Sequence record: OR757434.1
DNA length: 64,000 nt
Source of the DNA: Escherichia phage vB-EcoP-XT18
Direction: 5' to 3' (one strand)
Below, in pieces: positions 61,308 through 64,000 of the stretch. The notes under the pieces were generated by a model that was not told the DNA's origin, made no database searches, and worked only from the letters and a program-made list of their open reading frames with translations. Each line of letters starts with the position of its first letter. Position 1 is the first letter of the stretch. A program made the translations under genes and the position numbers.

Positions 61308-61517
61308 ATGTTCTTTCGTAAGAAAAAGCCCGAAGATTCTGGATGTAAACATGAGTGGGTGATCACTGAAAACTTACATATCACTCACGCTAAAGACACT
61401 CCAGTTGAAGCGAAAGAGTCTCGTGTATCTCGTGTCTGTAAACGCTGTTTGAAAATAGAACAGCATAAAGTCCCCGGTCATATAGGTCATGATGTGGCCT
61501 TGCGTATCTTCAGTTAA
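61308..61517 (+). CDS. hypothetical protein
   Basis: ORF. Confidence 0.4.
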   Translation: MFFRKKKPEDSGCKHEWVITENLHITHAKDTPVEAKESRVSRVCKRCLKIEQHKVPGHIGHDVALRIFS

Positions 61518-61535
61518 ACAAATTCAGAGGTTAAT

Positions 61536-61844
61536 GTGAAACAAAAGCATTTTATCATCTCAACCTTACTACTAATGACAACCATTGGTATCATCTCTGT
61601 TAATAGTGCAGAGATTGGGGTTAAGTATCAGAGTGTTCAGCAATGCACTCTTAAAGAGCATAGCTTAACTGGTATCAAAGAATCTCATGGTATGGTAAGA
61701 GATGGGCTTCTGTTTGTAGAAACAACTTCTGGTAATCGTGTCATGGCTACTGATGGCAAAGAAACAAAGTATGCCTACTTCCCTGATACAACAGGCTACT
61801 ACACTTTTGAAGAGAAGGATTGTAAGAAGTCTTTCTCTTTATAA
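61536..61844 (+). CDS. secreted or membrane-anchored protein
   Basis: N-terminal hydrophobic signal-like segment. Confidence 0.45.
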   Translation: MKQKHFIISTLLLMTTIGIISVNSAEIGVKYQSVQQCTLKEHSLTGIKESHGMVRDGLLFVETTSGNRVMATDGKETKYAYFPDTTGYYTFEEKDCKKSFSL

Positions 61845-61853
61845 ATAAATCAA

Positions 61854-61928
61854 GTCCCTATAGTTAAAAGGATATAACAGATTTCTTCTAAAAATCCATT
61901 CTAGGTTCGAGTCCTAGTGGGGACGCCA
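61854..61928 (+). tRNA. tRNA-Arg (anticodon UCU) with encoded CCA
   Basis: hand-folded cloverleaf: 7-bp acceptor stem with one G-U, D arm GTTA/TAAC, anticodon stem GATTT/AAATC with loop CTTCTAA, T arm CTAGG-TTCGAGT-CCTAG, discriminator G. Confidence 0.8.
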
Positions 61929-61948
61929 AATCAAATAGGAGGTGTGTT

Positions 61949-62248
61949 ATGAGTTGGGGTGGTGTAATATCCTTAATCTGTATCTTCCTTGTCTGTGTGG
62001 CCCTTACAGGCTGCGTACAGAGCCGTCCTGATAGATGGTGTGCAGTAGCAGTGGATGGTATTTGTGTATCTCGCTGGCATAAAGGTGAGAAGGTTCCTTC
62101 TGGTGAAATTGATATGCGCTGGAACGGAGCAACCTGCTCTAATGCTAACCCTTCTATCAACGAAGAGAAGTCTACGCCAGACAATGTTGTGATTGATACA
62201 GCGTTGTGGTGTGGTGGCTCTACGACTACAACCGGTAAGGAGTGGTGA
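61949..62248 (+). CDS. lipoprotein, candidate superinfection-exclusion protein
   Basis: signal peptide ending in lipobox LTGC. Confidence 0.45.
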   Translation: MSWGGVISLICIFLVCVALTGCVQSRPDRWCAVAVDGICVSRWHKGEKVPSGEIDMRWNGATCSNANPSINEEKSTPDNVVIDTALWCGGSTTTTGKEW

Positions 62249-62249
62249 T

Positions 62250-62447
62250 ATGAATTACACGTCTACAAAGGTGTTAATTGATTCGATTAATAACACCTCA
62301 GAAGCTGTACAGGAGCGTTTAATACAAGATGTAAGCAATGATATTAAGTTCTTTGTTAAACGCCGCCTGTTAGGTTCTAAGGCTTATTACAGAGCTAAAG
62401 CTGAGTTAACTAAGAGAGTGTTTCTCTTACACGGCTTGGTGTATTAA
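62250..62447 (+). CDS. hypothetical protein
   Basis: ORF (track 62193-62447, first plausible ATG at 62250). Confidence 0.35.
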   Translation: MNYTSTKVLIDSINNTSEAVQERLIQDVSNDIKFFVKRRLLGSKAYYRAKAELTKRVFLLHGLVY

Positions 62448-62456
62448 GGAACTCGT

Positions 62457-62678
62457 ATGAAATTAGATTCTAAACAATCCCTTAAAACTGTTGAACTGTC
62501 CACACTGCCAAACGGAAGTATTTTTGGTCATGATAAACACTTCTGGATTAAAACAGACTACTTGAACGATGGGTATATTACCTGCGTCAACCTTTGGAAT
62601 GGTTCAGTGGATGGCTATCGCCCTAGTGCAAAAGTAGTCCCTCAGCCTGATGCAAAGGCTATAGGTTTAGTTTATTAA
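62457..62678 (+). CDS. small early protein, paralog family B
   Basis: TLPNGSIFGHD. Confidence 0.45.
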   Translation: MKLDSKQSLKTVELSTLPNGSIFGHDKHFWIKTDYLNDGYITCVNLWNGSVDGYRPSAKVVPQPDAKAIGLVY

Positions 62679-63213
62679 GGAGTTTATATGAGCTGTTTTG
62701 GTGGTGGTGAAATAGATGACGATTATGACATGGAATCCAACGGTACATGTCCTGATTGTGGGTGTGAAACATTTGATGGAGTGTCAGTATATCCTGCCTG
62801 TAGTTATTCACCAGTAGTTTGTAAAACATGTGGAGATCAACCTTGTGATCAGTCCTGTTAAGAGGTTTTATGACTGAAGAATTTTTAAAGTGGTTTGGAA
62901 ATACCTTCAAAGAATATCTATTCTCTCCAGAAGACTTTGAAGAGCTGAAAACCTACACTTGGTTGGCTTGGAGAGATAGCCGACGAGAGATGAATAAGTA
63001 ATATCGTGAAGGATTCTTACGAGAGTCCTTTGAGATAGGACTTCAGATCTCCTATCAAACTAACATTCACGTAACTAGCCCATAAGGGCGTTACCCTTTA
63101 ATAACCCAGCCCACTAAGGGGGCGGGAGTTTAGTGCTGGATTTAGCATAACGCTTATTCCTACAAAGGCATCCGATTGTTAGATCTTACATGCAATATTA
63201 ATTAATAGGATAA

Positions 63214-63240
63214 GGGAGGATTCGTCCCCTCCCCCTATTT
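63214..63240 (+). terminator. weak hairpin terminator
   Basis: GGGAGG ... CCUCCC then CUAUUUAU. Confidence 0.3.
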
Positions 63241-63650
63241 ATAAATTATCAGGAGGGTGCATTAGCTGATTAGCTGTAGAAGGGAGGCTGATATCTACAG
63301 CGTGGCCCAGAGTTAGTGTACTCTCCTGATGAGTAGATACCTCATCACGGTAAGCTGTGGAATAATCTTTACAGAAGTTACTTAAAGTAGCCTGTACGGC
63401 CCTCAGCAAAGAGTCCGGACGATATCTGAGTGACTTTAAAAACAGATGGAGCCAGGTGGAATCCCTGGCAATCAATTACAGGTATAGCTTATGAGGCTAA
63501 TTAATGCAGAGCCTATGGTAAAGCAGTCGCCCGTGGTCAAATGACCGTATGCCCATTGGGTGCATCCCTTTGGTGATGGCTAGGGAGTCCGAGCGTAGGT
63601 CCGAACCCTACACCTGTAACCAAATCAAACAATATCTAATTGGAGGATGT

Positions 63651-63962
63651 ATGAAAGCTCGAAGAACTATATGGACTCCGATGCAGATTGAAAATCTTCG
63701 GAGACTAATCAAAGAGTACTCTGTTCAAGAGGTTGCTCAGATTATGAATGTAACGGAGAATGCAGTTAATACAGCTTGCACTAAGTTTGGTATATCAAGA
63801 GCTGCAATCCGAGTCAAGTGGTCTAAAGAAGAAGACCAGTTCCTTATCCGTAATGCTGGGTTCATGTCTATTCAGAGAATGGCTGACATGCTCGGTAGAA
63901 GCTATGCTGCTGTACAGAACAGGGCATGTATGCACCTTAACATTAGCCTTAAACTTAAATAG
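63651..63962 (+). CDS. Myb/SANT-like double-HTH DNA-binding protein
   Basis: two W...EE/Q..L.......Q.MA..LGRS..AVQNRA-type repeats; ATG at 63651 with GGAGG RBS inside track ORF 63549-63962. Confidence 0.45.
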   Translation: MKARRTIWTPMQIENLRRLIKEYSVQEVAQIMNVTENAVNTACTKFGISRAAIRVKWSKEEDQFLIRNAGFMSIQRMADMLGRSYAAVQNRACMHLNISLKLK

Positions 63963-64000
63963 GAATCAATATGAAAGTTAACGAGTTAAATAGAACTACC

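What the first reader, a model, noticed from the sequence alone, without database searches (positions are those of the whole stretch)
63000..63650. 650-nt non-coding region upstream of a Myb-like regulator, with a tRNA-like 3' module
The ORF-free region has multiple hairpins and ends in a T-arm-like stem-loop (GTAGG-TCCGAAC-CCTAC) followed by a 7-nt strand, one base and CCA. A complementary 7-mer lies 146 nt upstream, too far for a normal tRNA. It could be a tRNA-like structural element, a pseudo-tRNA or a leader controlling the HTH gene at 63651.
Basis: seen in the sequence. Interest (0 to 1): 0.4.

Follow-up and report, generated by a model that had tools for sequence, protein, structure and literature searches.

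The report
Portable tRNA-like RNA gene cassette
The gap upstream of the regulator gene is a patchwork of small structured-RNA modules that unrelated gut-bacterial phages swap among themselves, and its 3' end is a 146-base tRNA look-alike of unknown function, similar in kind to the 'species 1/2' RNAs of phage T4.

Summary
Window 63002-63650 has no conserved ORF, and 63477-63622 has a 7-bp acceptor stem, a T-arm, a discriminator A and an encoded CCA. Random sequence would give 0.003 such combinations per 64 kb. The window is a Kuravirus (phiEco32/SU10 group).

The gap is not one leader. It is a mosaic of four portable modules:
- A1 (63002-63240) is found in all kuraviruses and ends in a terminator-like hairpin.
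- A2 (63243-63335) is a 20-22-bp helix.
- B (63331-63473) includes a pseudoknot plus a T-loop hairpin found in 103 phage records.
- C (63474-63625) is present in only about 10 kuraviruses.

Module C also occurs at 91-93% identity inside tRNA arrays of Klebsiella N4-like phages, packed between tRNA-Tyr and tRNA-Ser. All copies are exactly 146 nt, and three helices show compensatory changes. It has no anticodon arm, and Rfam and default ARAGORN do not detect it.

Best reading: a tRNA-mimic stable RNA gene, matured like a tRNA. It is analogous to T4 rnaC/rnaD and is not a regulator of the HTH gene. Its function is unknown, and some copies show decay. Modules A2 and B flank an unannotated tmRNA-like tag-encoding RNA in other phages.

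The parts
63002..63240 (+). Module A1: a non-coding block found in all kuraviruses. Hairpins at 63008-63031, 63034-63056 and 63071-63094.
   Evidence: blastn finds 230 phage records, most covering query positions 1-240 at 95-98% identity. The block is also present at the head of the ncRNA/tRNA region of Gamaleyavirus N4-like phages. The hairpins come from the fold. Hairpin 2 covaries between the window (GAUAGGA/UCCUAUC) and Mimir124 (GAUAAGG/CCUUAUC).
63214..63243 (+). GC-rich hairpin GGGAGG-ATTCGTCC-CCTCCC followed by a U-rich tail. It looks like a terminator and marks the end of A1.
   Evidence: The terminator-like scan finds it. In phiEco32 and NJ01 it is followed at once by TTGAAT-18-TATATA, an RBS and a gene. 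It is conserved in Bp4, Mimir124 and pSb-1. The SU10 paper does not call it a terminator (PMC4281155).
63243..63335 (+). Module A2: a long irregular helix (5' strand 63246-63267, 3' strand 63311-63332) enclosing an inner hairpin (about 63273-63301) with a conserved AGGNAGGCYGAU loop.
   Evidence: All six sequence types fold into a 20-22-bp helix, with GG/CC changing to AA/UU at its base. It is present in the window, SU10, ShigP1, IME267, Mimir124 and JZBo1. It is absent from phiEco32 and NJ01. In Mimir124 and JZBo1 it lies directly 5' of a tmRNA-like tag region.
63331..63411 (+). Module B, 5' part: a small hairpin (63331-63350), then the leader GGUAAGCUGUGGAAUAAUCUU and the hairpin UACAG...CUGUA (63371-63396).
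   Evidence: It is missing from ShigP1, ev_rybdy3 and SU10. Positions 63344-63402 match jumbo phages (RaK2, PBECO4 group) at 83-85%. In RaK2 the matching sequence follows a TTGAAC-17-TATAAT promoter-like site. ShigP1 keeps the homologous leader directly in front of module C, which suggests B was inserted at TTACAG.
63412..63470 (+). Module B, 3' part: an H-type pseudoknot (S1 63412-15 with 63432-35; S2 63424-28 with 63443-47) plus a hairpin at 63451-63469 with a T-loop-like UGGAAUC loop.
   Evidence: 103 phage records carry it: N4-like phages including N4 itself, DS8, 9NA and Klebsiella siphoviruses. So do 14 E. coli prophages. Across 8 lineages 98% of cells are paired and there are 3 compensated pairs, including AGUC/GACU changing to AGCC/GGCU in the pseudoknot stem. 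No shuffle out of 500 reaches the observed score.
63477..63622 (+). Module C RNA: a 146-nt tRNA-like RNA. The transferred unit is 63474-63625.
- Acceptor stem: 63477-83 with 63612-18
- Hairpin I: 63494-63514
- Hairpins: 63535-46, 63548-78 and 63579-94
- T-arm: 63595-63611
- Discriminator A: 63619
- CCA: 63620-22
   Evidence: - Twelve phage records carry it at 91-100% identity, as do 3 metagenome contigs and 1 IMG/VR contig.
- In GADU21, HS106 and L010 it sits between tRNA-Tyr and tRNA-Ser, with 3- and 6-nt spacers.
- The six distinct copies aligned in A2, and the metagenome copies, are all 146 nt long with no indels.
- Six of the 15 variable columns form 3 compensatory pairs.
- The chance expectation for the motif is 0.003 per 64 kb.
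63640..63962 (+). RBS (GGAGG, 63643-47) and the HTH gene (63651-63962). This is a neighbour, not part of the RNA element.
   Evidence: Relatives annotate it as 'transcriptional regulator, D5-like'. Pfam gives Sigma70_r4_2 at 31.3 bits and Myb below its cut-off.

Best explanation
The gap is an island of portable structured-RNA modules sitting in the early operon of a Kuravirus. Its 3' module (63477-63622) is a gene for a 146-nt tRNA-mimic RNA.

Shown:
- It is a discrete unit that moves between unrelated phages.
- It has the format of a tRNA gene: a 7-bp acceptor stem, a T-arm, A73, an encoded CCA and the same AAT trailer as neighbouring tRNAs.
- Its helices are kept by compensatory change.
- It lacks an anticodon arm.

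Inferred:
- It is transcribed as part of the long early transcript made by host RNA polymerase.
- RNase P cuts its 5' end at 63476/63477, recognising the acceptor/T-arm minihelix plus CCA.
- Host exonucleases trim its 3' end to the CCA.
- It accumulates as a stable small RNA, as T4 species 1 and 2 RNAs (rnaC, rnaD) do next to T4 tRNA genes.

Because it cannot decode, the most likely role is as a tRNA look-alike that occupies or diverts a host factor that binds tRNA. Candidates are a tRNA-directed defence nuclease, or the CCA, aminoacylation, EF-Tu or SmpB machinery. This last step is speculation.

The upstream modules are independent elements of the same exchange pool: the A1 hairpins with a terminator-like stem, the A2 long helix (a plausible RNase III-type processing site), and the B pseudoknot with its T-loop hairpin. 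They are not a regulatory leader for the HTH gene.
For: - Identity and context: the window is 100% identical to Escherichia phage vB-EcoP-XT32, a Kuravirus. The gap corresponds to the gp100/gp99 spacer of SU10. That spacer lies within early genes 69-125, which are transcribed from sigma-70 promoters further upstream, and no terminator is reported there (PMC4281155).
- Mosaicism: SU10 lacks 63331-63627. ShigP1 and ev_rybdy3 lack 63327-63473. phiEco32 and NJ01 keep only 63001-63240.
- Module C sits in tRNA arrays of Efbeekayvirus phages with 3-6-nt spacers, and every array member ends in CCA followed by AAT.
- Relatives have the canonical T-loop TTCGAAT or TTCGAAC.
- The length of 146 nt is invariant. 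Compensatory pairs occur at positions 6/137, 20/36 and 84/90. In all, 99.5% of cells are paired, no shuffle out of 500 matches this, and slid controls give 27-43%.
- The motif combination is expected 0.003 times per 64 kb.
- Precedent: T4 rnaC (139 nt, with T-arm CCGGG-UUCGAAU-CCCGG) and rnaD (119 nt, ending ACCA) lie 1-6 nt after tRNA-Arg. They are expressed, and their function is still unknown (PMC9697503).
- A different 124-nt tRNA-like RNA with the same acceptor start (UAC) and ACCA end exists in Gamaleyavirus arrays.
Against: - There is no expression or end-mapping data for any copy.
- The 146-nt RNA is not more stable than shuffled sequence (z = -0.61).
- All known copies are at least 91% identical. 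The covariation therefore rests on only 15 variable columns and perhaps three or four independent events.
- Only about 10 of roughly 170 Kuravirus-group records carry the module, so it is dispensable.
- The window copy has C at T-loop position 55, where its relatives have U.
- One metagenomic lineage has CCA changed to UCA and two disrupted pairs in hairpin I. This looks like decay.
- No anticodon-like loop, identity element or complementary target was found. There is no 12-mer match, sense or antisense, elsewhere in the window.
- The proposed decoy role has no direct support.
Confidence: 0.55

Rival explanations
1. Decaying passenger. Module C, and perhaps B, is a fragment of a foreign tRNA/ncRNA array that recombined into the Kuravirus early region. 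It has no function there and is eroding. Its structure was inherited from a functional RNA in N4-like phages.
For: - Closely related kuraviruses differ in whether they carry it.
- The window copy has the U55-to-C change.
- The L097/L099 lineage has CCA changed to UCA and two broken pairs in hairpin I.
- The junctions fall in AT-rich tRNA-trailer-like linkers (AATTAAT, CCAAAT) and at a shared TTACAG, as expected for illegitimate or short-homology recombination.
Against: - Length is strictly conserved, with no indels in any copy.
- Compensatory changes also separate Kuravirus copies from each other. Positions 20/36 differ between window/FH3 and ShigP1, and 84/90 differ between the window and FH3.
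- The module is retained in at least three Kuravirus sub-lineages.
Confidence: 0.27
2. tRNA-punctuation signal (t-element-like). The tRNA-like fold serves mainly in cis. Cleavage by RNase P and 3'-end enzymes releases the downstream HTH mRNA with a defined 28-nt 5' UTR and separates it from upstream early RNA.
For: The CCA ends 28 nt before the ATG and 20 nt before the GGAGG. tRNA-like t-elements define mRNA ends in plant mitochondria (PMC1920247, which I saw only by title and abstract). The A2 long helix could be a second processing site.
Against: Most kuraviruses express the same gene without the module. In Klebsiella phages the module is flanked by tRNAs, not by an mRNA.
Confidence: 0.1
3. 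A real decoding tRNA that carries an intron. ARAGORN, with introns allowed and lowered thresholds, calls tRNA-Leu(CAG) with a 58-nt intron and a long variable arm.
For: ARAGORN -i -ps calls it at 63477-63622. The 88 nt left after removing the 'intron' is the size of a class II tRNA.
Against: - There is no call at default or lowered thresholds without the intron option.
- The Rfam tRNA model gives nothing at E up to 10.
- The proposed D-stem is broken in GADU21, HS106 and ShigP1 (G20 to A). That same change is compensated in the alternative hairpin I.
- The proposed anticodon stem has two G-U pairs and no covariation.
- 58 nt is too short for a group I intron, the only intron type known in bacterial and phage tRNA genes (my own knowledge).
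Confidence: 0.03
4. A miniature tmRNA-like RNA. This would be a tRNA-like domain plus an internal short reading frame, ..GCAGUC GCC CGU GGU CAA AUG ACC GUA UGC CCA UUG GGU GCA UCC CUU UGG UGA, giving ARGQMTVCPLGASLW.
For: The AGUC-GCN context resembles the E. coli resume site UAGUC-GCA (from memory). Neighbouring modules A2 and B belong to a tmRNA-like system in other phages.
Against: - There is no G3-U70 pair; the acceptor is U1-A72, A2-U71, C3-G70.
- ARAGORN tmRNA mode and the Rfam tmRNA models find nothing.
- All four differences within the frame among copies change the amino acid (Q/R, V/I, G/D, S/F), and two of them are an RNA-compensatory pair.
- The peptide lacks the usual xLAA-type C-terminus.
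Confidence: 0.03

Closest known systems
Phage T4 species 1 (rnaC, 139 nt) and species 2 (rnaD, 119 nt) stable RNAs
   Same: - They are small non-decoding RNAs of 120-150 nt, encoded head-to-tail with tRNA genes and separated by a few nucleotides.
- rnaC carries a canonical T-arm near its 3' end, and rnaD ends in ACCA.
- Their function is unknown (PMC9697503).
- Module C has the same size class, the same position inside Klebsiella-phage tRNA arrays, a T-arm and a CCA.
   Different: - There is no detectable sequence similarity.
- Module C has a perfect 7-bp (possibly 8-bp) acceptor stem closing the whole molecule.
- In the window it is not in a tRNA array. It stands alone about 1.5 kb downstream of the single tRNA-Arg.
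- Processing and stability have been shown for the T4 RNAs (my own knowledge) but are untested here.
Canonical tRNA (Rfam RF00005)
   Same: Both have a 7-bp acceptor stem, a 5-bp T-stem with a 7-nt T-loop (UUCGAAU in relatives), a discriminator base and an encoded CCA. Module C also has the same genomic punctuation as true tRNAs in the array.
   Different: Module C is 146 nt, against 73-93 nt for a tRNA. Between the acceptor and the T-arm it has 111 nt forming four or five hairpins. It has no 5-bp stem with a 7-nt anticodon loop and no D-arm with G18G19. The covariance model does not detect it.
tmRNA (ssrA) and the tmRNA-like RNAs of enterobacterial phages seen here
   Same: Both are tRNA-like domains with extra structured RNA. 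Modules A2 and B of the window are the same modules that flank a tag-encoding tmRNA-like domain in N4-like, DS8-like and other phages.
   Different: The window has no tag frame and no conserved GUUUUCGU..GCGG element. There is no G3-U70 pair and no Rfam or ARAGORN tmRNA hit.
Gamaleyavirus 124-nt tRNA-like RNA (Bp4 L005 2154-2277; Mimir124 L087 1689-1812), unannotated
   Same: Both have an acceptor starting UAC/UAU, A73 and CCA, a UUCGAAU T-loop, a hairpin in the variable-arm position, no anticodon arm, and a place in the same kind of ncRNA/tRNA island.
   Different: The interior sequence and length differ, and homology is not demonstrable.

Membership tests
Canonical tRNA | 7-bp acceptor stem closing the molecule, with a discriminator and a CCA end | tested here: met
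   TACAGGT (63477-83) pairs with ACCTGTA (63612-18), followed by A and CCA. The 6/137 pair changes from G-C to A-U in the Klebsiella-phage copies.
Canonical tRNA | T-arm with a 5-bp stem and a UUCRANN loop | tested here: met
   Relatives have GTAGG-TTCGAAT/TTCGAAC-CCTAC. The window has TCCGAAC, a C at position 55.
Canonical tRNA | Anticodon arm with a 5-bp stem and a 7-nt loop, and an overall length of 73-93 nt | tested here: not met
   The RNA is 146 nt. The consensus structure has loops of 9, 4, 5 and 4 nt. The only ARAGORN model needs a 58-nt 'intron' and lowered thresholds.
Canonical tRNA | Score at or above the Rfam RF00005 gathering threshold of 29 bits | tested here: not met
   There is no tRNA hit in 62800-63800 even at E up to 10. 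The true tRNA-Arg scores 57 bits.
tmRNA | G3-U70 alanine identity pair in the tRNA-like domain | tested here: not met
   Position 3/70 is C-G in all copies.
tmRNA | Tag reading frame under peptide-level selection, ending in a hydrophobic degron | tested here: not met
   All four differences in the candidate frame change the amino acid. The conserved phage tmRNA-like 5' motif GTTTTCGTRAGCGAYTWTGCGG is absent from the window even with up to 3 mismatches allowed, and no tag frame was seen on reading the gap.
tmRNA | Detection by ARAGORN tmRNA mode or by the Rfam tmRNA models | tested here: not met
   Searches find nothing.
T4 species-1/2-type stable RNAs of phage tRNA arrays | Encoded within a tRNA gene array, a few nucleotides from flanking tRNAs | tested here: met
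   This is met in GADU21, HS106 and IMG/VR L010, with tRNA-Tyr 3 nt upstream and tRNA-Ser 6 nt downstream. It is not met in the window itself, where the nearest tRNA is 1.5 kb away.
T4 species-1/2-type stable RNAs of phage tRNA arrays | Accumulates as a discrete stable RNA processed from the tRNA precursor | not testable with these tools
   No transcript data are available. This needs a northern blot or end mapping.
T4 species-1/2-type stable RNAs of phage tRNA arrays | Sequence or structure homology to rnaC or rnaD | tested here: not met
   By eye, only the T-arm is shared. The MFE folds differ.
cis-regulatory 5' leader or riboswitch of the HTH gene | Consistent linkage of the element to the regulated gene across relatives | tested here: not met
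   The HTH gene is present without B and C in SU10, phiEco32 and NJ01. Module C is present without the gene in Efbeekayvirus phages.
Intrinsic terminator (63214-63243) | GC-rich stem-loop followed by a U-tract | tested here: inconclusive
   The stem has 6 bp, 5 of them G-C, but the tail CCUAUUUAUA is interrupted. NJ01 has CCUAUUUUAUUG followed by a promoter-like site.

The most novel reading that the evidence does not exclude
The window's modules may belong to a previously undescribed modular system of tRNA- and tmRNA-mimicking RNAs exchanged among unrelated enterobacterial phages.

In this system a tag-encoding mRNA-like domain (ANDDVVLMAA and variants, with purely synonymous codon variation) is combined with interchangeable tRNA-like domains. 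Module C and the Gamaleyavirus 124-nt RNA would be examples of such domains. The 146-nt RNA would then be an acceptor-type partner or a stand-alone effector that engages the host ribosome-rescue or tRNA machinery during infection, rather than an inert look-alike.
Probability: 0.12. Interest if true: 0.8.

Novelty: new member of a known kind. Interest (0 to 1): 0.5.

Why it matters
The non-decoding RNAs found in phage tRNA clusters have had no known function since the T4 species 1 and 2 RNAs were described. This work defines a second family with a clean tRNA-type frame. It also shows that such RNAs travel as cassettes between Kuravirus, N4-like and other phages, together with pseudoknot and long-helix modules that elsewhere flank a tmRNA-like tag-encoding RNA.

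This gives concrete and easily tested objects: one 146-nt RNA, natural isogenic phages with and without it, and a defined predicted RNase P site. They can be used to ask what tRNA mimics do for phages, for example in evading tRNA-directed host defences or manipulating ribosome rescue. For annotation, it shows that these 'empty' intergenic regions hold unannotated RNA genes and several spurious ORF calls.

Tried and rejected
- Rfam at gathering threshold over the whole window, and at E up to 10 over 62800-63800: only chance-level hits (miRNA, snoRNA and Clostridiales-2 at 15-19 bits).
- ARAGORN at default and lowered thresholds, and in tmRNA mode: nothing in the gap.
- Search for distant homologues of module C. 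A 20-mer and a 15-mer in IMG/VR gave one true hit and 71 chance hits. A 22-mer in metagenomes gave three Kuravirus contigs. A 22-mer in 185,579 species genomes gave none, so no bacterial source was found, though only an exact 22-mer was searched. blastn against phages at E up to 0.01 gave 12 records, all at least 91% identical.
- Host origin. E. coli genomes contain only the 59-nt pseudoknot element, inside prophages.
- Antisense target in the phage: no 12-mer sense or antisense match elsewhere in the window.
- Promoter scan: no sigma-70-like site on the + strand in 61500-64000.
- The idea that GCCTGTA (63390) pairs with TACAGGT (63477) to form a 95-nt tRNA-like RNA. I dropped it because CUGUA pairs locally with UACAG (63371-75), and RaK2 conserves that hairpin without the downstream partner.
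- The idea that AGUGUAC (about 63315) is a tmRNA acceptor strand. I dropped it because it is the 3' strand of the A2 helix.
- Literature searches for a phage tmRNA-like RNA, for the tag peptide, and for any description of this spacer in phiEco32 or SU10 found nothing relevant.
Full report
**Observation.**
- The upstream 43-aa ORF stops at 63001, and the HTH gene starts at 63651 behind a GGAGG.
- In between, the only ORFs of at least 30 aa are a 78-aa minus-strand ORF and an in-frame extension of the HTH ORF. Both are cut by module boundaries in relatives and have no credible Pfam match.
- GTAGG-TCCGAAC-CCTAC lies at 63595-63611, ACCTGTA at 63612-18, A at 63619 and CCA at 63620-22. TACAGGT lies at 63477-83, so the unit is 146 nt.
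- I scanned for this combination: a 5-bp stem, a T-loop consensus, a 7-bp acceptor complement 40-200 nt upstream, and NCCA. It finds two sites in the window, the true tRNA-Arg(tct) at 61854-61928 and this one. Random Markov-1 sequences give 0.003 per 64 kb.
- The whole gap folds better than shuffles (z = -4.05). The 146-nt unit alone does not (z = -0.61).

**Where the window comes from.** The region is 100% identical to Escherichia phage vB-EcoP-XT32, a Kuravirus of the phiEco32/SU10 group. It corresponds to the spacer between SU10 gp100 and gp99, the 'D5-like transcriptional regulator'. The SU10 paper places genes 69-125 in the early class, transcribed from sigma-70 promoters further upstream. 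It reports only four terminators, none of them here (PMC4281155). No + strand promoter-like site was found near the gap. The gap is therefore most likely transcribed as part of the long early RNA. This is an inference.

**The gap is a mosaic.** blastn against 50,697 phage records shows that different parts of the 650 nt have different relatives. Local blast against the fetched loci gives the breakpoints.
- 63001-63240 (A1) is in essentially all kuraviruses.
- SU10-type genomes continue to 63330 (A2) and then jump straight to the RBS of the HTH gene.
- phiEco32 and NJ01 lack A2. They go from the A1 hairpin to a promoter-like TTGAAT-18-TATATA and the next gene.
- ShigP1, ev_rybdy3 and relatives have A1, A2 and C but not B.
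- Only XT32, XT73, FH3, 1-6af and 1-6bf have A1, A2, B and C.
- The modules also occur in unrelated phages. A1 and A2 are in Gamaleyavirus N4-like phages at about 80-85% identity. Positions 63344-63402 are in jumbo phages such as RaK2, where they follow a good sigma-70 promoter-like site. Positions 63412-63470 are in 103 phage records, including N4, DS8, 9NA and Klebsiella siphoviruses, and in 14 E. coli prophages. Module C is in the Klebsiella N4-like phages GADU21 and HS106.

**Module C.**
- The transferred unit is 63474-63625.
- In GADU21, HS106 and an IMG/VR contig it lies inside a tRNA array. tRNA-Tyr ends 3 nt before it and tRNA-Ser starts 6 nt after it. Like its neighbours it ends in CCA followed by AAT.
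- The six distinct copies aligned here, and the metagenome copies, are all exactly 146 nt.
- Relatives have a canonical T-loop, TTCGAAT or TTCGAAC. The window has TCCGAAC.
- Of the 15 variable columns, six form three perfectly compensated pairs in three different helices. These are acceptor 6/137, hairpin I 20/36, and 84/90 in the 72-102 hairpin. A seventh change is A-U to G-U.
- On the consensus structure 99.5% of cells are paired. Slid controls give 27-43%, and no shuffle out of 500 reaches the observed covariation score.
- The same G20-to-A change that is compensated in hairpin I breaks the 'D-stem' of the only tRNA model that ARAGORN can be forced to produce, tRNA-Leu(CAG) with a 58-nt intron under -i -ps.
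- There is no 5-bp stem with a 7-nt anticodon loop. The Rfam tRNA model gives nothing at E up to 10. There is no G3-U70 pair.
- The RNA is therefore a tRNA-framed but non-decoding RNA.
- The depth of this evidence is limited. All copies are at least 91% identical. One metagenomic lineage carries CCA changed to UCA plus two broken pairs in hairpin I.

**Other modules.**
- A1 holds three or four hairpins and ends in GGGAGG-AUUCGUCC-CCUCCC plus a U-rich tail. Hairpin 2 covaries between the window and Mimir124.
- A2 folds in all six sequence types into a 20-22-bp helix whose base covaries, GG/CC against AA/UU, with a co-inserted base pair in the window. It encloses a hairpin with a conserved AGGNAGGCYGAU loop. 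A helix of that length is a plausible RNase III substrate, though this is an inference.
- B ends in an H-type pseudoknot plus a hairpin with a conserved UGGAANC loop, a T-loop-like pentanucleotide. Across eight lineages 98% of cells pair and three pairs are compensated, including AGUC/GACU changing to AGCC/GGCU in the pseudoknot stem.
- In ShigP1 the leader GGUAAAUGUGGAACAACCUUUUAAU runs straight into UACAGGU of module C. In the window a homologous leader runs into UACAGAAG of module B. B was therefore probably inserted by recombination at this shared TTACAG.

**How it most likely works.**
- Shown: module C is a discrete, mobile, structure-constrained unit with the format of a tRNA gene.
- Inferred: host RNase P cuts at 63476/63477 and exonucleases trim to the encoded CCA. 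This releases a stable 146-nt RNA from the early transcript, as happens for tRNAs and for T4 species 1 and 2 RNAs.
- Because it cannot decode, I take its role to be tRNA mimicry towards some tRNA-binding host factor. Confidence in the gene-and-processing part is moderate. Confidence in the mimicry role is low.

**Rivals.**
- A decaying passenger fragment. In its favour are the presence/absence polymorphism, the U55-to-C change and the CCA loss in one lineage.
- A t-element-like processing signal that defines the 5' end of the HTH mRNA, since the CCA ends 28 nt before the ATG.
- An intron-containing tRNA.
- A mini-tmRNA. All four differences in its candidate frame change the amino acid.
The gene exists without the modules, and the module exists without the gene.

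**Comparison with what is known.**
- The closest known objects are T4 rnaC (139 nt) and rnaD (119 nt). They lie 1-6 nt after tRNA-Arg in the T4 tRNA array. rnaC has a canonical T-arm near its 3' end and rnaD ends in ACCA. They are expressed late and still described as of unknown function (PMC9697503).
- Module C matches them in kind: size, array position in the Klebsiella phages, and tRNA-like 3' features. It does not match them in sequence, and its stability is untested.
- A further unannotated 124-nt RNA with the same frame exists in Gamaleyavirus arrays.
- I therefore file module C as a new member of a known but poorly understood kind.

**Side observation with wider reach.**
- In Bp4, JZBo1 and Mimir124 (N4-like), DS8 and Sa179lw, HK620 (inside the pR'-tQ late leader), Michonne (FelixO1-like, inside its tRNA array) and PWKp5 (Ackermannviridae), modules like A2 and B flank a conserved RNA.
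- Its 5' part resembles the 5' region of tmRNA. It encodes ANDDVVLMAA, ANEEMYLAVA, ANEEAYLMVA or ANDNVFLAVA after AUAAAU.
- Among the ANDDVVLMAA copies, the last two alanine codons are GCG GCG, GCA GCC or GCU GCU, and one valine codon is GUU or GUA. All of these changes are synonymous.
- blastn finds this piece in 405 phage records, none annotated.
- Rfam gives only sub-threshold hits to tmRNA_permuted (27-33 bits against a threshold of 47) and beta_tmRNA. ARAGORN finds nothing. I found no paper on it.
- The window itself lacks this domain.

**The downstream gene.** Pfam supports a sigma-70 region 4-type HTH (31.3 bits, cut-off 25.7). The Myb_DNA-binding hit (21.5 bits) is below its cut-off of 24.4.

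Noticed in passing
L005 1765-1850 (Bp4), L083 1653-1735 (DS8), L088 1516-1600 (HK620), L087 1520-1600 (Mimir124), L095 1281-1365 (JZBo1), L100 about 700-785 (Michonne), L101 about 680-775 (PWKp5): An unannotated tmRNA-like mRNA-like domain occurs in 405 phage records of very different families. After AUAAAU it encodes ANDDVVLMAA, ANEEMYLAVA, ANEEAYLMVA or ANDNVFLAVA, with purely synonymous variation among the ANDDVVLMAA copies. It is always followed by pseudoknots and then a tRNA or tRNA-like domain, and none of the acceptor stems I read had a G3-U70 pair. Rfam hits are sub-threshold only (RF04321, RF01850), ARAGORN is negative, and I found no literature on it.
   Followed up: partly
L087 1689-1812 (Mimir124); L005 2154-2277 (Bp4): A second family of long tRNA-like RNAs: 124 nt, acceptor TACCAGT or TATCAGT pairing with ACTGGTA, then ACCA, a UUCGAAU T-loop and no anticodon arm. 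It lies in the Gamaleyavirus ncRNA/tRNA region and is unannotated.
   Followed up: partly
L004 1566-1631 and 1603-1727 (N4-like phage AL25): A 66-70-nt tRNA-like gene (annotated 'tRNA-Undet', acceptor UCCGGUG/CGCCGGA plus ACCA) follows the pseudoknot/T-loop element. Further downstream, a 13-bp stem (GAAAGAACTCTTA/TAAGAGTTCTTTC) encloses a canonical T-arm and has no CCA; the scan also reports this T-arm as a 125-nt unit at 1603-1727. N4-like tRNA regions hold several non-canonical tRNA-like RNAs.
   Followed up: no
L092 700-1260 (Klebsiella phage SopranoGao); L082 2641-3506 (E. coli PT62 prophage); L083 1560-2404 (DS8): These are 850-nt non-coding islands built of repeated units. Each unit has ACAACAGG, a long hairpin, CCGUUGUGGUG, a tRNA-like domain and CACCACAAC, with the pseudoknot/T-loop element between units. 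In DS8 and the PT62 prophage the island sits among virion genes that read on the opposite strand.
   Followed up: no
window 63239-63475 (- strand); L085 1117-1302 (NJ01_114): ORFs annotated as hypothetical proteins in XT32 (WPK42032.1) and NJ01 overlap the RNA modules. They are not conserved among close relatives and are probably spurious calls.
   Followed up: partly
window 63600-63606; L097 and L099 (metagenome contigs): The window copy of module C has C instead of U at T-loop position 55. A metagenomic Kuravirus lineage has CCA changed to UCA and two disrupted pairs in hairpin I. Both are signs of relaxed constraint in some lineages.
   Followed up: yes
window 63651-63962: The downstream 'Myb-like' gene scores above threshold only for Sigma70_r4_2 (31.3 bits). 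Myb_DNA-binding is below its cut-off (21.5 against 24.4). Relatives annotate it as a D5-like transcriptional regulator.
   Followed up: yes
L090 1440-1600 (RaK2): The leader and hairpin homologous to window 63344-63402 start a few bases after a TTGAAC-17-TATAAT promoter-like site in this jumbo phage. This suggests the piece is the 5' end of an independent small RNA there.
   Followed up: no
window 61854-61928: A bona fide tRNA-Arg(tct) (57 bits, Rfam) lies 1.5 kb upstream in the same early region. It is the only canonical tRNA in the window.
   Followed up: yes
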